Below, piece by piece: positions 4,904 to 14,482 of a DNA stretch of 29,004 nt (positions are counted from its first letter, which is position 1; each line of letters starts with the position of its first letter). A program made the position numbers and the translations under genes. The notes beneath the pieces are model-generated. The model had not been told where the DNA came from, ran no database searches, and saw only the letters and a list, made by a program, of their open reading frames with translations. This stretch comes from a virus (lineage: Duplodnaviria > Heunggongvirae > Uroviricota > Caudoviricetes), in IMG/VR virus record IMGVR_UViG_643348547_000007; one strand, given 5' to 3'.

Positions 4904-5185
4904 TCACATCCAGCCACGAAGTTGATGCTCAACAACAATCGCGTATTTATCGAATATTGACGATTTTTTTGCATCATTAATGATGCGCACGTTTACAAAA
5001 TATCCGTCCTCCTTAACACATACCGGTTCGCCATCTTCAGTCAGTTCTCCGGTTTCTTTGTACACGTTACCTATCACGTCAATAAGAATATCATCCTGCA
5101 TCGACTCGTCATCATAATAGCCAATACTCTCCATAAAGGCCGAAAAGTCGGCCCTGTCTGCAAATTTGAGCGTTAAATCTTTCAT
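4904..5185 (-). CDS. Hypothetical acidic 93-aa protein, translationally coupled to stf (ATGA overlap)
   Basis: ATG 5185 overlaps the stf TGA (5182-5184); strong GGGGGAGAG Shine-Dalgarno; no family recognised from the sequence. Confidence 0.55.
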   Translation of the reverse strand: MKDLTLKFADRADFSAFMESIGYYDDESMQDDILIDVIGNVYKETGELTEDGEPVCVKEDGYFVNVRIINDAKKSSIFDKYAIVVEHQLRGWM

Positions 5186-7581
5186 TTAATACTCTCCCCC
5201 ATTTGCGCATCAGTTAATTCTTTATGCCAGAGACGAAGATTTCTCAAATGGCCGAATAGATGACGAGTTCCCGATGTGGCTTGACCTCCAATTCGAATAA
5301 AGGTCCGTGTTTTTACGCCCGTCCACTCCGTTTTCATGGTTTTAGTAGCCTCACCGTTAGAAACTACTCGTTTAGTACCATCAGAATAAATATTAAAACC
5401 ACCAATGAATTTTCGAACATCAGTTCGACCAGCAAACACACTAGAAACGTAAGTACTTGTCGACGCTTTATAAGTTTGCATATAAAGCTGACCGTAATAT
5501 TTCTCAGTTGTGTTAAAAGCGTATGTAATTGACTCAATAGGTGGCACACCAGAAAAATCAAAAATACGCGGTGCTACATTAGGAGGAATATCGCCCCAAT
5601 TTCTATTAACCTCGACCAGGCACGTAAGCGGTCTATTATAGATATTATTTTCAGTTGGGATCGTCACCATATCACTGGAGCGGGTTGCGGGTACAGTTGT
5701 CGTAATAACAAAAGATGAAGCACATCCGCCGTTTTCAAATTGTGGTGTTGCAAGGTAAATATAATCTCCCGCTTCAGTTACACCACCTTTTTTCGGCGCA
5801 TACTGAATCATTGCGCCAATTAAGGTTTCACCTTCAACAGCTTCTATAGTTGCCTCATAGAAAATCCACCCTGTAACCGGATCTTTAGTTGCAGTAGCTG
5901 CTATTCTATTGGCTGCTCCGCCAGTTTTTTCTATTATCAGAGTTCCGAAAGTTAAATAAGCATCTCCTAAAAATGTATAAACCGACCCATCGTATTTTTC
6001 AAAACGCAAACGACAACGAAGACCATCAGGAGCTTTAACCCTGCATGAAACAGTGCAATACTTATTATCGCCACTAACATCAATCCCCCGGGATGCACTG
6101 CATGTATGCAGACTAAGTGCAGATGATTGTCCTGTCATATTATCTTTTGTTCGCATTTTGGCATATGAAAAACCAAATTCATCAACACCATTATTAGTTT
6201 TATCGATATTGCTGGTACTCGTCCATTCAGCGGGGATATTGGATTTAACAAAATAGTTAGTGCGCTGTCCTTCAATCAATAAACCTTCTTTTTCAAATCG
6301 TGGCTCATCAATTTTAGCAACACTAAATACGCCTGATTTATTGATATATGTGGCAGTTGATGCGCGTTTAAACTTTACAACCTTATCGCCAGGCATCGTT
6401 ATTTCATCATCACCAATAACAATCTTTTTATATGACGGCGAAAAGCCCGTAATCATATCCAGTGAATCGTTAAACGGTATCCACACATCGGGAAGCGGCT
6501 GCAAAACTTGTTTATACGGCTCCGCAGCCTGGCTTGCATACTCTCTGGCTGCGTCTTCACTTGCTTTTGCAGCCGTCTGGCTTGCTGCCGATGCTTTCGC
6601 TGAGTTAGCCGCCGCAGTCTCGCTCGCCTTTGCGTTGGTTTCACTGGTTTTTGCAGCTTTTTGACTGTTGGCTGATGCAGAGGCAGAAGAAGCCGCCGCA
6701 CTTGCAGAACCAGCTGCGGCACTCTCGCTTTGGGCTGCTGCATCCTGACTGTTTTTCGCCGCAGTTTCACTGGCTTTGGCATTCGTTTCGCTGGTCTTCG
6801 CTGCCGTCTGGCTGGACTTTGCGTTAGTTTCACTCGTCTTCGCAGCTTTCTGGCTGTTAGCCGCAGCAGTTGCTGATCCAGTTGCTGAAGTCGCAGAACC
6901 GGCTGCCGCGCTCTCGCTTTGGGCTGCTGCAACCTGGCTGTTTTTTGCCGCAGTTTCACTGGCTTTGGCATTCGTTTCGCTGGTCTTCGCTGCCGTCTGG
7001 CTGGACTTTGCGTTGGTTTCGCTCGTCTTTGCGGCTGTCTCGCTATTTTTCGCGTTGGTTTCTGATTTTTTGGCTGCTGTCGCGGAGTTTTCTGATGCAG
7101 TCTGTGAGGTCGCTGCCGCCTGTGCACTATTAGCTGCATTCGTTTCTGAGGTTTTCGCCGCGTTCTTCGATGATGCCGCTGCAGTTTCGGATTTCTTTGC
7201 CGCCGCTGCGCTCTGAGAGGCGGCTTCGGCGTTGCGTGCCGCTTCTTCCACCATTTCCTCAAAACGACGCAATGCCTCCGGCATGACATCATCTTCCGTC
7301 ATGGCACCGAGAAAATCATTCAGCGTACCTGGTCTGGAACCTTCATAGACGGTAATGGTTCCGGCATGTGAAGGCGGAAAACCTTCAACAAGCAGGATAA
7401 CGCTGTACTGGCCATACTCAACATCCATGCTGTAACGCCCGGCTTCATCCGGATTTTCAGAGGCCACCGTGTTCACCAGTACCGTGGTGCTGTTACGCTT
7501 TGCCTTCAGTTGAATAGTGCAGTTCTGTATTGGTTTTCCCGCACCATCTTTCAGCACACCTGAGATTTTTACTGCTGCCAT
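5182..7581 (-). CDS. stf: Side tail fibre protein (lambda Stf-like N-terminal domain, Ala/Ser/Thr-rich fibre repeats, divergent lectin-like C-terminal domain)
   Basis: N-terminus MAAVKISGVLKDG...GTITVYE matches the lambda Stf N-terminal domain from memory; likely start is ATG 7581 with GGAG upstream (the track's 7587 start is a GTG). Central KTSETNAKxSETAAK repeats. Confidence 0.85.
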   Translation of the reverse strand: MAAVKISGVLKDGAGKPIQNCTIQLKAKRNSTTVLVNTVASENPDEAGRYSMDVEYGQYSVILLVEGFPPSHAGTITVYEGSRPGTLNDFLGAMTEDDVMPEALRRFEEMVEEAARNAEAASQSAAAAKKSETAAASSKNAAKTSETNAANSAQAAATSQTASENSATAAKKSETNAKNSETAAKTSETNAKSSQTAAKTSETNAKASETAAKNSQVAAAQSESAAAGSATSATGSATAAANSQKAAKTSETNAKSSQTAAKTSETNAKASETAAKNSQDAAAQSESAAAGSASAAASSASASANSQKAAKTSETNAKASETAAANSAKASAASQTAAKASEDAAREYASQAAEPYKQVLQPLPDVWIPFNDSLDMITGFSPSYKKIVIGDDEITMPGDKVVKFKRASTATYINKSGVFSVAKIDEPRFEKEGLLIEGQRTNYFVKSNIPAEWTSTSNIDKTNNGVDEFGFSYAKMRTKDNMTGQSSALSLHTCSASRGIDVSGDNKYCTVSCRVKAPDGLRCRLRFEKYDGSVYTFLGDAYLTFGTLIIEKTGGAANRIAATATKDPVTGWIFYEATIEAVEGETLIGAMIQYAPKKGGVTEAGDYIYLATPQFENGGCASSFVITTTVPATRSSDMVTIPTENNIYNRPLTCLVEVNRNWGDIPPNVAPRIFDFSGVPPIESITYAFNTTEKYYGQLYMQTYKASTSTYVSSVFAGRTDVRKFIGGFNIYSDGTKRVVSNGEATKTMKTEWTGVKTRTFIRIGGQATSGTRHLFGHLRNLRLWHKELTDAQMGESIK
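6700..7077 (-). repeat. Tandem duplication of about 189 bp (63 codons) within the stf repeat region, embedded in shorter fibre-repeat periodicity
   Basis: CTCTCGCTTTGGGCTGCTGC and the following roughly 100 bp recur at 6722 and 6911 with few mismatches; the protein shows AAKTSETNAKSSQTAAKTSETNAKASETAAKNSQ twice. Confidence 0.6.
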
Positions 7582-7591
7582 ATCCACTCCA

Positions 7592-7645: not shown

Positions 7646-8245
7646 TCAGAACTTATAACCGACACCCACGATGAAACCGTCAGTGCGCCAGTCGCCACTG
7701 CCGGAGCCTTCATAAGCAATATCAATGGCCACGGATTCGGTCGGGTTAAACTGCACGCCAGCTCCCCACGCCAGAGACGTGTTGCTGTGGCGATCGTCAT
7801 CACTTCCGGTCAGCACATCGTGCGTTTTCCCCTTGTTGTCAGTTACGCGGAGATAATCCCCGGAGAACGTCGAAACACGGCTGTAAGCCACACCCGCCAT
7901 CGCATACGCGCTGAACCATTCATTCACGCGCACAGACGGCCCCGCCATTACGCTGAACCAGCGGTTACGCACGGAATCTTCATGCCAGCGGGTATCGCTG
8001 TAATGCGTTTTTTGTTCATCTTCTGCGTCGGCATAACTGAAAGACGTAATCAGCCCCAGCGTGTCCGTAAATTCATAACGGTATTTCACGTTAATCCCGT
8101 TCAGATTATCGCTTCCTGGCATATCAGTGTGGGTCTGAAGATACCCGGCGCTTAGTGTGGACTGATGCTCTGCTGCGCTCGCTGGCGTACCAGCGGCAAC
8201 CAGCCAGACTACTGCGGACAGAATAACAGCACATAATTTACGCAT
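7646..8245 (-). CDS. lom: Lom outer-membrane protein (Ail/Lom/PagC family beta-barrel), 199 aa with signal peptide
   Basis: N-terminal signal peptide; C-terminus ...VAIDIAYEGSGSGDWRTDGFIVGVGYKF matches lambda Lom as recalled; located between J and stf as in lambda. Confidence 0.9.
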   Translation of the reverse strand: MRKLCAVILSAVVWLVAAGTPASAAEHQSTLSAGYLQTHTDMPGSDNLNGINVKYRYEFTDTLGLITSFSYADAEDEQKTHYSDTRWHEDSVRNRWFSVMAGPSVRVNEWFSAYAMAGVAYSRVSTFSGDYLRVTDNKGKTHDVLTGSDDDRHSNTSLAWGAGVQFNPTESVAIDIAYEGSGSGDWRTDGFIVGVGYKF

Positions 8246-8275
8246 AATTACCTCTCGCTTTTCTGCAATAAAAAA

Positions 8276-8303
8276 GGCGTCATTTCTGACGCCCGTATTG
8301 GGG
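8276..8303 (-). terminator. Intrinsic terminator between J and lom (stem GGCGTCA/TGACGCC, then a U-run on the minus strand)
   Basis: Inverted repeat at 8286-8292 and 8297-8303 with loop TTTC; on the minus strand it is followed by TTTTTTTATT. Confidence 0.5.
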
Positions 8304-8312
8304 TTATAAAAT

Positions 8313-11300
8313 TCAGCTAATCGTGATGCCTGCAGTGGCTTTCTTCATCACCACAACCAGCAAATCGCTGATACTTGCTGTGGGATACCAGTCATTTACC
8401 AGCCATGCTGACACCGAAAACTCCAGCGTCATGTGACCGTGACCGGCAGGCATATCAATAACGCCACTGTAAATCAGCGTATTATCCAGCGCGGTACGGT
8501 TATAAATTTCAGCACCGTTTTTCCGCACTATCAGACGGCATGAGGAGTAAATATCAGTATGCTCTCTCTCATGTTTAGCGCCGCTGAATGCCACCGCCGG
8601 AATAACAATCTGCCGGTCAAACGGCTGATCGTCATAAATCCTGACGGTAATGGTCCCTGATGGCCACCGTTCCGGTGCACGGGAGTCACGGGGGAAAGCC
8701 TTACCCACTGTTTTAACGAGATCGCCTTCAATCTGGTTTGCAGACAGTTTCCCTCTGATGACACAGTTCTCGTTAATGGTGACATTATTGAGCGTGCCGG
8801 TATTCGCCGTGATGGCTCCACTGATATCCGCATTGCGGGCTGTCAGCCTGCCATCCGGCGTCAGGGAAAACGTCGGAGGATTGCCGGATGACGTGATGCT
8901 CACCGCAAACAGTCGCTTCAGGAACACGTCGTTCATGAACAGCTGATTCCCCTGCGCCACAAATAACGGCGTGGTGTTACCGTTCTCCGGAGTAATCATC
9001 GCAATGCGATCGGCCTGCAGCAGAATGTTACTCAGCGTCTGACCATCGACATCCTCGATCCCCGCGCCAATCCCGGCCACATACGGAATACCCTTCTTCG
9101 TTTTCTGCACCTTCAGCATATACATGGCATTCAGATTATCGCGCGTGTCTGACTGAACCCGCTGGATTTGCTGTATGGTCACGGCCTGGTCACCCAGTTT
9201 TTTATCCGTGGTCGAGGCAATTTCACTCCCTTTTTCATCCACGTACTGACGGACCTGTGCTATCTGCCGGGCGTTTTCTGACTGGCCCTGGCTGACTGTC
9301 TGCTTGATTTCACTTTGCTTTTTGTCCACGTACTGGCGGACCTGTGCTATCTGTCGGGTATTTTCCTCACTGCTCTGACTGACCGTCTGTGAGATTTCAC
9401 TGCTGACACGGTCCACTTTCTGACTCACCTGCGCGATGGCCAGCGTCTGATCCTCATTCTTTTTCGCAACCAGCTGCGTGAGGCTGTTTTCCGCCTCCCC
9501 GATTTTCCGGGTCACTTCCGCAATATCCGTGTCCATCCGCTGACGGATGTCTTCTTCCAGTTGTCCGATATTCTCTTCCAGTTGAGTGACATCCGATCGC
9601 AGGGCTGACGCATCAATGCGCTTTTTCAGTGCCTGCCCCAGCAGCGTCTCATCTATCAGACCACGGAAAAATTCCAGATACCCTTTTGCATCATTGCTGG
9701 CCTGCCCGCTGGCTTCCACAAATGCAGACTTGCCCACCAGGTTGACACTGCGCACATAAAACCAGAAATCCATCCCCGGCTTAATCCGATCGCCCTGGAC
9801 AGTCCACTGACTGCCGGTCCCCAGATAACGGGCAGATTTTTCCACCTGTGCCGTGTTCGTGATGCGTTTTTCTGAGAACCAGAATTCAAACTGTATCGTC
9901 GGATCATACACCGCAAGACGCGGGACCGCCGTTATCTGAAAATACCCCGGCGTCAGCTCAATGGTGGCGGGTTTTGCAGGCGCGTTAATCCGGAAGGTGG
10001 TGGTCGCAGGTTCGCCCTGCTGGCCGTAGCTGTTAATGGCCCGCACCGTCAGGGTGTATTCCCCCAGCGGCAGACCACTGAAACGGTGCTCCGTGTCTGC
10101 GGTGATGGCGGTGCTCACCAGACGGCTGTCTTCTCCGCTTCCGCTGGTCAGACGCAGACTGAAGCGCACACCCTTCACCACCCGCGGCGTGTCCCATTTC
10201 GCCTGTGCCAGATACTGACCGTCAGCTGCACTCACCTCCACCGTCAGGTGCTGCACTGCCGGTGGGATAACGCTGTTCAGGCTGCCTGACTGCGGCTCAA
10301 AGCGGGCACCGTTATCCACAATGGCTTCTTTTTCCGGTACGTGCTGCACCGCCGTGATGGCGAACGTGCCGTCCGTGTTTTCCCGGATGGAGACACAGCG
10401 GAACAGGCGACGACGCAGTGACGGCAGGGAGAGTCCCCACACCCCGTATGTCTCCACACCATCCGGCAGGGTGCTGACCTGTATCCGGTCAGGCGCGGGG
10501 TGTGCGGTGATGGCCACGCTCGCCGGCTTACCGCTGCCGTTAATCAGATTAACAGTGGCCGTGCCGGTCTCCGGCAGTGTCACCTCCCGGTCCAGCGTCA
10601 GGGTACGGCTGGCGGCATCGATGGACAGGACACGTCCGCCGGTCATGGTCCCGGCATAGTCGTTATCACAGATTTCAATGATGTCACCGGGTGTGTGCCG
10701 CAGCCCCTGAGACCCGAGCGTGAAATCCACCGTCTGCGTTTCCAGCAGTTCGGTCTTTATCACCCACAGCCCGGCACGGTGGGCCTGACCGCGGCTGGTA
10801 CAGCCGAACGCGTCCATCTTCAGCAGGTTGCGTCCGTAGCGCAGTATGGCTTCCGGGTCTTCCACCAGTTCCGTGGAGGTCTGCCAGCCGTTCTGCGGGT
10901 CGGTGTAATTCACCTCCACCGCCGTGTGCCGGTCCTTCAGGGCACTGAAGCTGTAGCGGAACCCCACGCCGTTATCATCCACCACCACATCGCTGTTGGT
11001 GTACGGCCACACCACATCCGACGGGCGGTCCTGAACGAACGTCAGCGTCTGACCGTTCCATACCGGCATACAGCGCATCGCAGAGCAGAAATCACTGAGA
11101 ACGTCCCACGCCTTACGCTGTTGTGCCAGGTACGCATTAAAGGTCATCCGCGGCTCGGTCCCCCCGAAACCATCCGGGACCGTCTGGTCGCAGTACTGCC
11201 CGATGGCATACAGCGCCCACTTGTCCACATCCGCCGCCCCCAGACGTTTTCCCATGCCGTAGCGCGGGTGAGTCAGCATGTCCCACAGGCACCAGGCCGG

Positions 11301-12113
11301 GTTGTTGCTGTATGCCGGTTTCAGACTGCCGTCCCAGATACCACTGTACGTGCGTTTTTCCGGGTCATAGTTTGACGGCACCTGGATGATGCGACCGCGG
11401 ATATGGTAGTTCACCGTCATCTGCTGGCCGCCGAACTGCTCCGCATCCACCTGCAGCCCCACAATGGCCGTGTTCGGGTAGCACTGTTTCACATCGATGA
11501 TTTCGGTGTATGACGACCACAGCGTCTTATTCTGCAGCTGGTCCGTGGTGCTGTCCGCCGTCTCCCTGACCATCCGGATGTTAAAGGGCCGGGGAGGCAG
11601 ATTATCCAGAATCACCGAGGCCAGGAACTGCGAGGTGGTCTTGCCGTTAATGGTGACATCCTTTTCCGTCACCCAGCGGCCATTACGCTGTAACTGAATC
11701 AGAATCCGGACAGAGGAAGGATTACGGTCGCCCTTTGACGTGGTCTCCACCAGTGACTGCACCCCGAAGGTAACCCGCAGGCGGTCAATGTTCGCGGACG
11801 TAATGGTGCGCGTCACCGGTTTTGCCTTCGTCACTTCCACGCCCAGTCCGGTTTCAGCTCCGGAGGACTCAAAGCCTTCCGGTGGTGTCTGCTCCTGCTC
11901 CCCGGCACGCCAGACCGCGGTCACACCGTGTATCACGGGATTGCCGTCCGTGTCCGTCAGTGGGGTTTTGTTCACCAGAATACTCTGCAGTCCCTTCACC
12001 GGACCTTCTATCGGTCCCTCACCAATCGCATCAATCACACTCATCATCTGCGTGGATTTGAGATTATCCTTCGCCTCACGAGGCGTGTGTGCCTTACCGC
12101 CACCTTTTCCCAT
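8313..12113 (-). CDS. J: Tail tip / host specificity protein J (central tail fibre), 1266 aa
   Basis: Collinear with lambda J along its length ([22 protein letters not shown]... N-terminus; [10 protein letters not shown] and C-terminal regions conserved), with an extra internal repeat-containing segment. Confidence 0.95.
9238..9410 (-). repeat. Two tandem copies of an imperfect ~87-bp repeat (plus a partial third upstream) inside J, encoding repeated [10 protein letters not shown](K/E)K-type motifs
   Basis: TCCACGTACTG(A/G)CGGACCTGTGCTATCTG... recurs at 9238 and 9323; the protein shows ...[25 protein letters not shown]...[19 protein letters not shown]... Confidence 0.55.
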
Positions 12114-12216
12114 ACAGCCTTCCCCTGAATAAATTAACCGCCACTTGCCATTCCGTACAGAAGTCGGATATCCTTCGCCCGAAAAGCATGAAACACATTT
12201 CTGCCATGCTAAAGAG

Positions 12217-12252
12217 AAACCCCGGTATCAGCAGATACCGGGGTTTTCTTTC
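12217..12252. terminator. Strong hairpin (10-bp stem CCCCGGTATC/GATACCGGGG, loop AGCA) flanked by T-rich runs on both strands; candidate bidirectional intrinsic terminator in the I-J intergenic region
   Basis: Perfect inverted repeat at 12220-12229 and 12234-12243; plus strand continues TTTTCTTTC; minus strand continues TTTCTCTTT. Confidence 0.55.
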
Positions 12253-12318
12253 ATGCCCACCGATAATCCTGTTGGTTAAAACCGGTAATGGCATAAAAAT
12301 TCTGAATATCTTCACATT

Positions 12319-12346
12319 TTCACAAACTGACTGTGGCGCGTATAAT
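12319..12346 (+). promoter_or_regulatory. Sigma70-like promoter candidate (TTCACA, 16-nt spacer, TATAAT) antisense to the tail operon
   Basis: TTCACA at 12319-12324 and a perfect TATAAT at 12341-12346, read directly; no experimental support. Confidence 0.35.
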
Positions 12347-12352
12347 TTCGCT

Positions 12353-12450
12353 GCGTTAATTTTTTTGTCGTGATATAAGAATAATTCCTTACACTTAATC
12401 TTCGTAACTCTCCCGCAGTTCCTGTCCGCGATCACTGCGGGATTTTTTTA
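12353..12450 (+). ncRNA. Candidate small RNA of about 100 nt, from the promoter-like element to the intrinsic terminator, in the I-J intergenic region
   Basis: Predicted start about 7 nt after the -10; ends at the terminator 12411-12450; no credible ORF or RBS inside; sits in a 343-bp gap between I and J that is not part of lambda's I-J arrangement as I recall it. Confidence 0.3.
12411..12450 (+). terminator. Intrinsic terminator on the plus strand (stem TCCCGCAG/CTGCGGGA, 16-nt loop, then TTTTTTT)
   Basis: Inverted repeat at 12411-12418 and 12435-12442, T-run 12443-12449; on the minus strand no U-run follows, so it is orientation-specific. Confidence 0.5.
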
Positions 12451-12456
12451 TTCTTT

Positions 12457-13137
12457 TTACCCCTGCCGCCCGATAACCACGACCTTTCCGCCCCCGCCTT
12501 CATCACGGGTGCTGATGTCCTGGGATATACGGCGGGAGCCAACCAGCATTTCCCCGTAAGGCACCGGCATCGGGTTCCCCTGGGCAATCATGTTATCCAG
12601 CGAGGAAAAGTACGTGTTCTGTCTGCCGTTATCCGTTGCGCGGTAATCCGGTGTTTTTGCCTTCGGGGCCAGCATCTGTGCCACACCGCCCAGTATCATG
12701 CTGGCCCCCAGTGAAAACAGCATCGTGGTGGCAGAAAAACCACCGGCTGCCAGGGCTGAACCCCATAACGCCATCGAGGCACCGGCCGTGAAGAAAGAGC
12801 CCACGATGGCTGCCGCCCCCAGCACAATCTGCAGTCCGCCCTTTCCGGCTCCGGCCAGTCGCGGCACAATGTGGATGACCGTTCCCTCACCCAGCTGTTC
12901 GTGAAGACGGGCGTACACCGCCTCCGGTGCCGTGTCATCACCGGCAATACGTATCTGGTACCAGCCTTCGTTCATCTGACGGCGAAAGCCCGGCATCTGC
13001 ATCGACAGGGCGCGAATGGCTTCCGCTGCCGTGTTCACATACAGGCTGAGGCGGCGGCCAAATCGTTGCAAATCCCCGTGAAGGCAGATGCGTGCCAGTG
13101 GCGGTGACGCCAGACAGAATGCGTTCGTCGTTGCCAT
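12457..13137 (-). CDS. I: Tail assembly protein I, 226 aa
   Basis: Matches lambda gpI from memory (ARICLHGDLQRFGRR, QNTYFSSLDNM, C-terminal GGG...VVVIGR). Confidence 0.9.
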   Translation of the reverse strand: MATTNAFCLASPPLARICLHGDLQRFGRRLSLYVNTAAEAIRALSMQMPGFRRQMNEGWYQIRIAGDDTAPEAVYARLHEQLGEGTVIHIVPRLAGAGKGGLQIVLGAAAIVGSFFTAGASMALWGSALAAGGFSATTMLFSLGASMILGGVAQMLAPKAKTPDYRATDNGRQNTYFSSLDNMIAQGNPMPVPYGEMLVGSRRISQDISTRDEGGGGKVVVIGRQG

Positions 13138-13778
13138 TTTTCGGAATACCTCTCCCGTTTACTCAGTTGTTCAGGCAGATGGTGAAGCAGCTCACCGTTG
13201 CCGCAGTAAATGGCGGCATGGTTCGGTACCGAAGCACCAAAGCAGCACAGCAGAATATCGCCCGCCTGTGCAGAGGACAGGGGCACCCGGTAAAAGCCGG
13301 TGACCGCCATATTGTCCAGGTAAAGGTTCTGACCGTTGCGCCACCAGTCATCCTCGCGATGAAAATCCGGCATTTCAGTCCCCGCCAGATGGTATGCATC
13401 CCGGAACAGCGTGTAACAGTCCGTCACCCCGTGCTCAAAGCGCCGTCCCGTCAGGTGCGGCACGCAGCGGAATTTGTGAATGTCACCCCGGCAGACCAGC
13501 CACCAGGGCAGTGCGCTTTTTATCTGCAGCCGCCGGTCAGCCTCGCTCAGCCAGGGCAGCCCACCGGGATGACTGTGGACCAGTGCCACAATCTCCCCCT
13601 GCATCTCTGCCCGCAGCCAGTCTTCCGGTGCGATACGAAAATACGCCTCCGGCTCTGCGGAAATATTCACACAAGGGATATACCGCTCCCCCTCCGGCGT
13701 GCTTATCACGAAGCCGCACGACTCCGCAGGCGCACACCGCCGGGCATGCGCCAGAATCGCTGATTCTGTCTGTGTCAT
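13035..13778 (-). CDS. K: Tail assembly protein K (JAB/MPN metalloprotease-like and NlpC/P60-like domains), 247 aa as the longest frame
   Basis: JAMM-type motif HSHPGG...SEAD and a Cys/His NlpC-P60-like region; positioned between L and I. The ORF overlaps I by 103 nt, so the true C-terminus is uncertain. Confidence 0.8.
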   Translation of the reverse strand: MTQTESAILAHARRCAPAESCGFVISTPEGERYIPCVNISAEPEAYFRIAPEDWLRAEMQGEIVALVHSHPGGLPWLSEADRRLQIKSALPWWLVCRGDIHKFRCVPHLTGRRFEHGVTDCYTLFRDAYHLAGTEMPDFHREDDWWRNGQNLYLDNMAVTGFYRVPLSSAQAGDILLCCFGASVPNHAAIYCGNGELLHHLPEQLSKRERYSEKWQRRTHSVWRHRHWHASAFTGICNDLAAASACM

Positions 13779-13783
13779 TGGAT

Positions 13784-14482
13784 TTACTGCGAAAGTTTGT
13801 TAATGGAAAGGAAACCGCCAAAATTAGCCACCATGCCGCGCATCTCACACCCGCGCATGCACTTGCTGCATCTGTCCTTACGGATATCCGTGGTGGGGTT
13901 GTCGAACTCATCCGCCACCGCAGGACCGTTATACCCGCATTCATCTCCCCGGTAATCCCACATACAGGTGTTCGCCAGCATGATGCGACCGGGAAACAGC
14001 GCCCCGTCCGTCTCGGTCGGTGTAGCCAGCACAAACGAGGCCGTCATGGCTGTCAGCTGCGACATCTGCTCCACCACCCAGCGGTCACTCAGCTCCTGCT
14101 CCGGGTCCGCCTCCGGATTGCCCGCAACGAAATTCACCGCATCCAGAAAACGGGCATACACCCGGCGGCGGACCACCGTGGCCCCCACCAGACTCTGCAG
14201 GTCTTCCGCCATCCCGGTGACCAGACCGAACAGATTGGACACCGTCAGCGACGGTCTGGCACTGCTGCCCCGGCCGTTCATCTCAAAGCCGCTGCCGTCA
14301 ATCGGGTATGCCTCATACTTACGCCCCTGCCAGGTGACCGGCTCCCCTTTTTCATTCAGCTCATTACAGAAAAAATACCGCTCACCACCCTGTACCGTCA
14401 GGTCGATTTCCCAGAGTACCACCCGCGGTGACTGCTCTGACTTAACCGACTCGTTCAGACTTTCTTCGCGAATATCCTGCAT
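13784..14482 (-). CDS. L: Minor tail protein L, 232 aa
   Basis: Lambda gpL-like, including the C-terminal cysteine cluster (CSKCMRGCE...). Confidence 0.95.
   Translation of the reverse strand: MQDIREESLNESVKSEQSPRVVLWEIDLTVQGGERYFFCNELNEKGEPVTWQGRKYEAYPIDGSGFEMNGRGSSARPSLTVSNLFGLVTGMAEDLQSLVGATVVRRRVYARFLDAVNFVAGNPEADPEQELSDRWVVEQMSQLTAMTASFVLATPTETDGALFPGRIMLANTCMWDYRGDECGYNGPAVADEFDNPTTDIRKDRCSKCMRGCEMRGMVANFGGFLSINKLSQ

What the first reader, a model, noticed from the sequence alone, without database searches (positions are those of the whole stretch)
9150..9480. Repeat-containing insertion inside host-specificity protein J
Relative to lambda J as I recall it, this J carries an extra segment with two to three imperfect tandem copies of an ~87-bp unit encoding a predicted coiled coil ([22 protein letters not shown]...). 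Tandem repeats inside a tail tip protein are potential sites of length variation and could change tip geometry or host range.
Basis: partly seen in the sequence, partly recalled or inferred. Interest (0 to 1): 0.4.

Follow-up and report, generated by a model that had tools for sequence, protein, structure and literature searches.

The report
Repeat-built helical shaft in tail-tip protein J
The phage tail-tip protein J in this window has a long alpha-helical stalk built from 29-amino-acid repeats, with one more repeat than the common E. coli version; this is a real but fairly ordinary length variant of a known part of the protein.

Summary
J (8313-12113, minus strand, 1266 aa) has 138 residues (aa 837-974) with no counterpart in lambda J. 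They lie inside lambda's alpha-helical shaft (AHS), between the second FNIII/Ig domain and the beta-prism fibre.

The segment contains an 87-bp (29-aa) tandem repeat: three clear units plus two degenerate flanking units, all in register. AlphaFold2 predicts one continuous helix (aa 837-993, pLDDT >90). Hydrophobicity repeats every 3.63 residues (29/8), not 3.5.

The shaft is length-polymorphic among E. coli prophage J proteins. Anchor-to-anchor lengths are 81 (lambda), 109, 182, 218 (this one), 251, 262 and 280 aa. The clearly resolved indels measure 7, 11, 29 and 58 aa.

The extra unit is a chimera of its two neighbours, joined at a shared AGTGAAATC, which indicates unequal crossing-over. The three-unit allele occurs in 13 of 5426 complete E. 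coli genomes; the two-unit allele occurs in about 690. The same receptor-binding domain type is found with three shaft lengths.

Most likely role: a modular rigid spacer that lengthens the central fibre, about 4 nm per unit. Its last unit is homologous to the lambda segment that refolds on receptor binding. Whether the whole shaft fold-switches like F-pyocin fibres is unresolved.

The parts
8313..12113 (-). Gene for tail-tip / host-specificity protein J (1266 aa)
   Evidence: ORF list and translation. 67% aa identity to lambda J. The Pfam domains FNIII-A_GpJ, Phage-tail_3, Ig_J, Ig_J_second, Phage_Tail_Tip and Ig_GpJ_C are all above their cut-offs. PDB lambda J 8iyk matches at E=0.
9666..9974 (-). 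Second Ig/FNIII domain (aa 714-816), immediately N-terminal to the shaft
   Evidence: Pfam PF24489 Ig_J_second, aa 714-816, E=4e-40.
9135..9605 (-). Predicted continuous alpha-helix of the shaft (aa 837-993)
   Evidence: AlphaFold2 with a 52-sequence alignment gives helix over model residues 48-204 (J aa 837-993), with ten-residue pLDDT blocks of 92-96 over roughly aa 850-970. The hydrophobic periodicity peak is at 3.63-3.64 residues, power 175-184 against a shuffle 99th percentile of 89. No Pfam family covers aa 817-979.
9192..9605 (-). Segment with no counterpart in lambda J (aa 837-974)
   Evidence: Alignments to lambda J.
9543..9584 (-). Tandem duplicated heptad QLEENIG / QLEEDIR (aa 844-857); the common 182-class allele has only one copy
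   Evidence: the repeat finder family D3: 21-nt copies at 76% identity. Alignment with PhiR49_2 shows a 7-aa gap. Related alleles carry 11-aa duplications at the same site.
9459..9545 (-). 29-aa unit u-1 (aa 857-885, [29 protein letters not shown]); degenerate but in register
   Evidence: Register table. 17-21% aa identity to u0-u2 with the hydrophobic positions kept.
9372..9458 (-). 29-aa unit u0 (aa 886-914, [29 protein letters not shown])
9285..9371 (-). 29-aa unit u1 (aa 915-943, [29 protein letters not shown]): the extra unit, absent from the common allele and chimeric
   Evidence: Nt 1-66 match the u2 units of other alleles at 52/66. Nt 67-87 match u0 tails at 15-18/21, against 4-10/21 for u2 tails. 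The junction lies in the shared AGTGAAATC. This unit is the 29-aa gap in PhiR49_2.
9198..9284 (-). 29-aa unit u2 (aa 944-972, [29 protein letters not shown])
9111..9197 (-). 29-aa unit u3 (aa 973-1001, [29 protein letters not shown]); contains the homologue of lambda J 841-861, the part that turns from helix to beta-strands on LamB binding
   Evidence: The alignment places window D975 opposite lambda D840. The lambda refolding is described in PMC11101478.
8793..9176 (-). Beta-prism central straight fibre (aa 980-1107)
   Evidence: Pfam PF09327 Phage_Tail_Tip, aa 980-1107. Aligns to lambda J 840 onwards and to the gpJ713 structures 8xcj and 9wca.
8316..8708 (-). C-terminal receptor-binding domain (aa 1136-1266)
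   Evidence: Pfam PF12421 Ig_GpJ_C. The closest solved chain is the 'A8 gpJ 713' chimera, 9wca, which is reported to use OmpC (PMC11338833).

Best explanation
The feature is the alpha-helical shaft (AHS) of the trimeric central tail fibre formed by J. It is the rod between the FNIII/Ig collar that closes the tail tip and the beta-prism fibre that carries the receptor-binding domain. Here the shaft is about 187 residues, against about 53 in lambda.

It is built from five in-register 29-residue units. Each unit equals eight helical turns, and the hydrophobic seam repeats every 3.63 residues. Adding or removing a unit therefore lengthens the rod by about 4.3 nm without breaking the seam.

This allele gained one unit (u1) by unequal crossing-over between the two neighbouring units at a 9-nt shared sequence. 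It also gained one duplicated heptad.

The most likely role is a rigid, modular spacer. It sets how far the receptor-binding domain projects from the tail tip: about 20 nm further than in lambda and about 5 nm further than in the common long allele. The last unit (u3) is the homologue of the lambda segment that refolds to beta-strands when the receptor is bound.

Shown here: the repeats, the helix prediction, the periodicity, the length polymorphism, and the chimeric junction. Inferred: the trimeric coiled-coil state, the added length in nm, the spacer function, and refolding of u3.
For: - **Position.** The extra segment lies between lambda residues 838 and 840, inside the lambda AHS (residues 809-861).
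- **Helix.** AlphaFold2 gives a single helix at aa 837-993, with ten-residue pLDDT blocks of 92-96 over roughly aa 850-970.
- **Periodicity.** The peak is at 3.63-3.64 residues with power 175-184. No shuffle out of 1000 reached it. Power at 3.5 is about 3.
- **Repeat units.** There are five 29-aa units in register; u0/u1/u2 are 38-62% identical at the aa level.
- **Length classes.** Anchor-to-anchor classes are 81, 109, 179, 182, 218, 251, 262 and 280 aa. The clearly resolved indels measure 7, 11, 29 and 58 aa, all near-integer numbers of turns at 3.625 residues per turn.
- **Origin of u1.** It has a chimeric structure with a microhomology junction.
- **Frequency.** The allele is found in 13 of 5426 complete genomes, always spanning 261 bp; about 690 genomes have the two-unit form.
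- **Independence from the RBD.** The same RBD cluster occurs with shafts of 109, 182 and 218 aa. The same 218-aa shaft occurs on a J whose N-terminal 700 aa are only 68% identical.
- **Known homologous shafts.** Long AHS shafts in F-type pyocins are experimentally trimeric coiled coils (PMC13455828 and bioRxiv 2026.02.24.707460).
Against: - The structure prediction was for a monomer, so trimer formation and coiled-coil packing were not tested.
- No experiment links shaft length to adsorption, reach or host range.
- The polymorphism could be selectively neutral.
- A single allele (P0139, class 179) has a 3-aa deletion that does not fit the integer-turn rule.
- The two copies of the duplicated 87 bp are only about 75-82% identical. 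The event is therefore either old or involved two diverged alleles; the data do not say which.
Confidence: 0.65

Rival explanations
1. Fold-switch energy store. As in the F7 pyocin central fibre, the whole shaft would be a metastable coiled coil that converts to beta-prism when the receptor is bound. Each 29-aa unit would become one beta-hairpin layer, so copy number would tune the stored energy or stroke.
For: - The topology matches: a long helical shaft between FNIII-2 and a beta-prism. In the F7 pyocin a 163-residue coiled coil refolds to beta-prism, and similar switches are predicted for 21 of 24 phage central fibres (PMC12874032).
- In lambda itself residues 841-861 change from helix to two beta-strands (PMC11101478). 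Their homologue here lies within the last 29-aa unit, u3.
- 29 residues is about the length of two strands plus turns.
Against: - The published motif SxSxxMxxLxS has no match in the lambda-absent segment (aa 839-974) and only two matches in u3.
- This shaft has a 29-residue repeat with a 3.63 period. Distant J-like shafts that carry alternating motif hits have a 32-residue repeat with a 3.56 period.
- AlphaFold2 gave a confident helix.
- The motif test is weak, because lambda's own switching segment also scores zero.
Confidence: 0.18
2. Neutral length polymorphism. Unequal recombination between repeat units, and between the several lambdoid prophages in one cell, generates in-phase indels that a coiled coil tolerates, with no functional consequence.
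For: - E. coli genomes hold a median of 2 and up to 13 J-like places, which gives ample recombination partners.
- J is mosaic: the same shaft is found on different N-termini.
- The three-unit allele is rare, at 13 of about 704 genomes carrying the long shaft.
Against: - Discrete length classes persist over wide divergence. The 182 class includes alleles only about 57-59% identical to the window segment.
- The resolved indels are nearly all integer-turn multiples, which points to selection for an intact rod at least. This does not exclude neutrality of the length itself.
Confidence: 0.25
3. Docking platform. The extra shaft length would provide binding sites for side tail fibres or accessory proteins, as in F2/F7 pyocins, where three side-fibre trimers attach to a kink in the AHS.
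For: Side-fibre attachment to the AHS has been shown for F-type pyocins (PMC13455828 and bioRxiv 2026.02.24.707460). A side tail fibre gene lies just downstream of J and lom in the window.
Against: No kink or insertion domain is predicted; the helix is continuous. No co-variation between shaft length and the stf gene was examined.
Confidence: 0.05
4. Contingency (phase-variable) repeat whose copy number changes at high frequency by slippage.
For: It is a tandem repeat inside a host-interaction gene.
Against: The units are only 75-82% identical. All 13 genomes with this allele span exactly 261 bp, and the listed two-unit alleles all span 173 bp.
Confidence: 0.03

Closest known systems
Lambda gpJ alpha-helical shaft (AHS, residues 809-861; PDB 8iyk, 8xcj/8xck; Ge & Wang 2024, PMC11101478)
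   Same: Same protein family and the same position, between FNIII-2 and the beta-prism fibre. The flanking sequence is homologous on both sides, and the last unit (u3) aligns to lambda 840-868.
   Different: Lambda has about 53 residues and essentially one unit. This J has about 187 residues, with five 29-aa units and a duplicated heptad.
Central fibre shaft of F-type pyocins (F7 CFP, F2 PyoF10/PA0641; PMC12874032, PMC13455828, bioRxiv 2026.02.24.707460)
   Same: A long trimeric helical shaft follows two FNIII domains and precedes a beta-prism. The N-terminal hub of J is homologous (PDB 25vf matches aa 3-696, E=2e-121).
   Different: The pyocin shaft is described as heptad-based, with a kink and bound side fibres, and carries the SxSxxMxxLxS fold-switch motif. 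This shaft has a 29-residue repeat with a 3.63 period, no predicted kink and no motif match in the repeats. The two shafts show no detectable sequence similarity.
Common long-shaft E. coli prophage J alleles (for example Escherichia phage PhiR49_2, PV340570; 1230-1232 aa)
   Same: Same shaft cassette. PhiR49_2 is 83% identical over the whole protein, and the shaft is nearly identical apart from the indels.
   Different: These alleles lack unit u1 (29 aa) and the second heptad (7 aa). They are about 50 times more frequent in complete genomes.
Non-heptad coiled coils built from 7+11+11 residue periodicities (hendecad-containing bundles such as tetrabrachion and trimeric autotransporter stalks); comparison from general knowledge, not tested here
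   Same: The hydrophobic period is close to 3.63-3.67 rather than 3.5. Beta-branched Ile/Val occupy the core positions, with polar Gln/Asn/Ser layers in between.
   Different: There is no sequence relationship, and the context here is a phage tail fibre.

Membership tests
Lambda-type tip attachment / host specificity protein J | Hub, FNIII/Ig, tail-tip-fibre and C-terminal RBD domains in the lambda order | tested here: met
   Pfam hits FNIII-A_GpJ (86-207), Phage-tail_3 (331-498), Ig_J (609-712), Ig_J_second (714-816), Phage_Tail_Tip (980-1107) and Ig_GpJ_C (1136-1266), all above their cut-offs.
Lambda-type tip attachment / host specificity protein J | Full-length sequence homology to lambda J | tested here: met
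   67% identity. phmmer against 8iyk gives E=0 in two stretches that flank the extra segment.
Lambda-type tip attachment / host specificity protein J | Gene order M-L-K-I-J-lom-stf | tested here: met
   ORFs in the window, together with the annotation of the closely related CE10 prophage and of phages PhiR49_2 and PhiR5_1.
Alpha-helical coiled-coil shaft | Long uninterrupted helix | tested here: met
   AlphaFold2 gives a helix at aa 837-993, with ten-residue pLDDT blocks of 92-96 over roughly aa 850-970.
Alpha-helical coiled-coil shaft | Regular amphipathic periodicity of 3.5-3.67 residues | tested here: met
   Peak at 3.63-3.64, power 175-184; 0 of 1000 shuffles reach it.
Alpha-helical coiled-coil shaft | Parallel trimer with knobs-into-holes packing | not testable with these tools
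   Only monomer prediction is available. A trimer is inferred from the lambda and pyocin structures.
F7-pyocin-type fold-switching shaft | Long coiled coil placed between FNIII-2 and a seeding beta-prism | tested here: met
   the architecture is as described in PMC12874032.
F7-pyocin-type fold-switching shaft | Repeated SxSxxMxxLxS motif in alternating orientation | tested here: not met
   No full match in aa 839-974 and two in u3. Distant J-like shafts show 6-11 matches that often alternate in orientation. The test is weak: counts are not above composition shuffles, and lambda's own switching segment scores zero.
F7-pyocin-type fold-switching shaft | Both a coiled-coil and a beta-prism conformation are obtained (by experiment or by trimer prediction with deep and shallow alignments) | not testable with these tools
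   Only a monomer AlphaFold2 run was possible, and it gave a helix.
Contingency / phase-variable tandem repeat | Near-identical units and copy-number differences among close relatives | tested here: not met
   Units are 75-82% identical. Copy number is constant in all 13 genomes carrying the allele.

The most novel reading that the evidence does not exclude
The 29-residue units could be modular fold-switch cassettes. Each would be eight helical turns in the virion and would refold into one beta-hairpin layer on top of the beta-prism after receptor binding, extending what lambda residues 841-861 do. The natural allelic series of about 1 to 7 units on the same receptor-binding domain would then tune the energy or stroke available for opening the tail tip and crossing the outer membrane. 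That series would be a ready-made test set for the fold-switch model in a genetically tractable lambda-like phage.
Probability: 0.15. Interest if true: 0.7.

Novelty: new variant of a known kind. Interest (0 to 1): 0.35.

Why it matters
The shaft between the tail-tip collar and the receptor-binding fibre is the element that refolds when lambda binds LamB. In F-type pyocins it is proposed to store the energy for envelope penetration.

E. coli lambdoid prophages carry a natural series of shaft lengths. The series is built from an in-phase 29-residue unit and occurs on the same receptor-binding domain type. This gives a simple experimental handle: swap 1, 2, 4, 5 or 6 units into lambda J.

Such swaps could test whether shaft length sets reach through O-antigen or capsule, sets triggering energy, or does nothing. 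It is also practical information for people who engineer chimeric gpJ delivery particles.

If the length turns out to be neutral, this is just an ordinary coiled-coil length polymorphism.

Tried and rejected
- **Protein searches with the shaft alone.** They returned almost only short partial proteins. These were useful for length classes but not for a deep alignment of the repeat. The full-length search was needed.
- **F7-pyocin motif scan.** The result was negative for the repeats, but the test has low power. Motif counts in positive-looking proteins are not above composition shuffles, and lambda's known switching segment also scores zero. I do not treat this as excluding a fold switch.
- **Retrieving the F-pyocin shaft sequence through a PDB search with a distant homologue.** Only N-terminal alignments were printed, so no direct periodicity comparison with the solved pyocin shaft could be made.
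- **Identifying the source genome.** The shaft is 100% identical to that of E. coli O7:K1 CE10 over 751 bp, and the whole J gene is 98.5% identical (3745 of 3801 nt). The window as a whole is not in the RefSeq complete-genome set; the best match covers 79% at 96% identity. No claim is made about the strain.
- **Link between long shafts and capsulated or extra-intestinal strains.** I considered this, but the search tools list too few rows to cross-tabulate, so it remains an untested idea.
- **Phage records.** No deposited phage carries the 6-7-unit shaft; it appears only in prophages.
- **Second structure-prediction job and fold searches.** These were not used, because a monomer model cannot discriminate between the rival explanations.
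- **Plus strand of 9150-9480.** It holds no ORF of 80 aa or more.
Full report
**What is there**

The finding lies in the minus-strand ORF 8313-12113, which encodes a 1266-aa protein. This is a lambda-type tip attachment / host-specificity protein J.
- It is 67% identical to lambda J.
- It matches lambda J structures at E=0.
- It carries the full set of gpJ Pfam domains in the lambda order.
- It sits in the usual order after the M, L, K and I homologues and before lom and a side-tail-fibre gene.

**Checking the observation**

Tandem Repeats Finder reports a period-87 array at 9230-9431, with 2.0-2.2 copies, 76-82% matches and scores of 209-237. The repeat finder reports two 87-nt copies, 9220-9306 and 9307-9393, at 75% identity.

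At the protein level the repeat is 29 aa and is far above chance. The mean BLOSUM62 self-score at lag 29 is 1.52. The best lag in 500 shuffles never exceeded 0.39.

Lambda residues 1-838 align to residues 1-836 here, and lambda 840-1131 align to 975-1265. Residues 837-974 (nt 9192-9605) therefore have no lambda counterpart.

**Anatomy**

Written in a 29-residue register, residues 857-1001 form five units:
- u-1: [29 protein letters not shown]
- u0: [29 protein letters not shown]
- u1: [29 protein letters not shown]
- u2: [29 protein letters not shown]
- u3: [29 protein letters not shown]

Units u0-u2 are 38-62% identical to each other. The outer two units are degenerate but keep the hydrophobic positions.

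Upstream there is a tandemly duplicated heptad, [14 protein letters not shown]. No Pfam model covers aa 817-979, which is the gap between Ig_J_second and Phage_Tail_Tip.

**Structure**

AlphaFold2 was run on aa 790-1130 as a monomer with a 52-sequence alignment. It predicts one uninterrupted helix over aa 837-993, with ten-residue pLDDT blocks of 92-96 over roughly aa 850-970.

The hydrophobicity spectrum of that helix has a single strong peak at 3.63-3.64 residues, which equals 29/8. Its power is 175-184; none of 1000 shuffles reached it, and power at the canonical 3.5 is essentially nil. Each 29-aa unit is therefore exactly eight turns of an amphipathic helix.

Core positions 8, 11, 15, 22 and 26 are Ile or Val, and the remaining core positions are polar. 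This fits a non-heptad, nearly straight helical bundle.

In lambda the corresponding region is the 'AHS', residues 809-861. It is a three-helix bundle that clamps the FNIII domains above the beta-prism fibre (PMC11101478). The extra segment sits in the middle of it. At 0.15 nm per residue, the shaft would be about 20 nm longer than lambda's. That figure is an inference.

**Variation among relatives**

I used two conserved anchors, VGKSAF and YVAGIG, to measure shaft length. The classes found are:

| Class (aa) | Where found | Source |
|---|---|---|
| 81 | lambda | |
| 109 | most common class; Stx-phage type | |
| 179 | one protein, with a 3-aa deletion | |
| 182 | common long form | |
| 218 | this window | |
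| 251 | 22 complete genomes | |
| 262 | one complete-genome allele | |
| 280 | one representative protein (P0259) | |

The differences that can be resolved are as follows:
- a 7-aa heptad and a 29-aa unit (182 to 218);
- an 11-aa and a 58-aa duplication (182 to 251);
- an exact 11-aa duplication (251 to 262);
- an exact 29-aa duplication (251 to 280).

At 3.625 residues per turn, all of these are within 0.07 turn of an integer. The only out-of-phase event seen is the single 3-aa deletion.

Among 50%-identity representatives of J-like proteins from all sources, the linker between the two flanking domains ranges from 45 to more than 400 residues. Lambda is therefore at the short end, and 'insertion' is only a relative term.

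In 5426 complete E. coli genomes, 704 match the three-unit stretch. Only 13 of these are colinear over all 261 bp, at 98-100% identity. The other hits listed span 173 bp, which is the two-unit form.

**Origin of the extra unit**

Unit u1 is a chimera.
- Its first 66 nt match the u2 units of other alleles at 52/66. A run of about 34 nt (positions 14-47) is identical to the u2 unit of PhiR49_2.
- Its last 21 nt match u0 tails at 15-18/21, against 4-10/21 for u2 tails.
- The switch occurs in AGTGAAATC (Ser-Glu-Ile), which both parental units share.

This is the signature of unequal crossing-over, or slippage, between adjacent units. The two copies of the duplicated 87 bp differ by about 18-25%. 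The event is therefore either old or occurred between two diverged J alleles. The second is plausible because E. coli genomes carry a median of two and up to 13 J-like loci. This last point is inference.

**Modularity**

The same receptor-binding-domain cluster (at least 80% identity over the last 165 aa) is found with shafts of 109, 182 and 218 aa. The 218 shaft also occurs on J proteins whose first 700 residues are only 68% identical to this one. Shaft length is thus inherited independently of both the hub and the receptor-binding domain. It does not by itself define receptor specificity.

The closest solved C-terminal region is the 'A8' gpJ chimera (9wca). It was engineered from a natural E. 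coli gpJ and uses OmpC (PMC11338833). An OmpC-like porin receptor is therefore a reasonable guess for this J, but it was not tested.

**How it most likely works**

I consider the shaft a rigid modular spacer of the trimeric central fibre. Its length is adjusted in in-phase quanta. Unit u3 is homologous to lambda 841-861, which changes from helix to two beta-strands on LamB binding, so u3 is the likely trigger element.

[quoted passage not shown] A shaft 20 nm longer would roughly double that reach. This might help the fibre reach a porin through long O-antigen or capsule, but that is speculation.

**The main rival: a pyocin-like fold switch**

In the F7 pyocin a 163-residue coiled coil at the same position converts entirely to beta-prism and drives penetration. 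Similar switches are predicted for many siphophage central fibres (PMC12874032).

I could not test trimers. The published SxSxxMxxLxS motif is absent from the repeats, and Gln occupies several would-be 'small' positions. The repeat class also differs: 29 residues with a 3.63 period here, against 32 residues with a 3.56 period in distant J-like shafts that show alternating motif hits. However, the motif also fails on lambda's own switching segment, so this evidence is weak.

**Other rivals**
- Neutral polymorphism remains possible (see the rival list).
- A docking role for side fibres, as in F-pyocins, has no evidence here.
- A phase-variable repeat is excluded by the divergence between units and by the constant copy number.

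**Verdict**

This is a real feature. It is a repeat-built, length-polymorphic version of a known structural element of a well-known protein. I found no description of the 29-residue unit or of the allelic length series in the papers searched. It is nevertheless the kind of variation expected in fibrous coiled-coil proteins. Interest is moderate to low. It would rise if the units prove to be fold-switch cassettes.

Noticed in passing
window 6683-7062 (minus-strand ORF 5182-7587, side tail fibre gene): A second tandem repeat: period 189 bp, 1.8 copies, 92% matches, score 598, with nested 42- and 21-bp sub-periods. It lies in the gene annotated in relatives as 'prophage tail fiber N-terminal domain-containing protein'. 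It may be another length-variable fibre segment.
   Followed up: no
window 12114-12456 (between the I homologue and J): The I-J gap is about 340 bp, against 60 bp in lambda and PhiR49_2 and 240 bp in PhiR5_1. It contains a 113-aa minus-strand ORF (12094-12435, GTG start) that overlaps the J start and has no Pfam or PHROG match.
   Followed up: partly
window 9543-9584, and L009 / L010: [quoted passage not shown] There is a 7-aa duplication here, an 11-aa insertion in the 251-class allele, and an exact 11-aa tandem duplication (QLENAINREMT twice) in strain F1022.
   Followed up: partly
P0259, P0004 (L009): Some E. coli prophage J alleles have 6-7 units, made by an exact 29-aa duplication and a 58-aa (two-unit) duplication. 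The 251-class allele is in 22 complete genomes, many of them from chickens. It is absent from deposited phage genomes.
   Followed up: partly
P0317, P0310, P0379, P0347 (distant J-like proteins): Their shafts have a 32-residue sequence repeat and a 3.56-residue hydrophobic period (32/9). Hits to the F7-pyocin SxSxxMxxLxS motif often alternate in orientation at about 15-17-residue spacing. This is a different repeat class from the E. coli 29-residue one.
   Followed up: partly
P0138: An 1882-aa protein labelled Bacillus thuringiensis Sbt003 was the top-scoring hit to this E. coli J (2547 bits). It is probably a contaminant or a fused gene call in that assembly.
   Followed up: no
P0024: A 251-aa E. 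coli J fragment has a 54-aa direct duplication that spans the end of the shaft and the start of the beta-prism (TRNEIT...YVAG repeated). It could be an assembly artefact or an out-of-register recombination product.
   Followed up: no
whole window: Only about 8000-14000 of the window is colinear with the CE10 prophage (97-99% identity, lower towards the edges). The rest differs, and no complete RefSeq E. coli genome covers more than 79% of the first 25 kb. The prophage is a mosaic that is not represented as a whole in that collection.
   Followed up: partly
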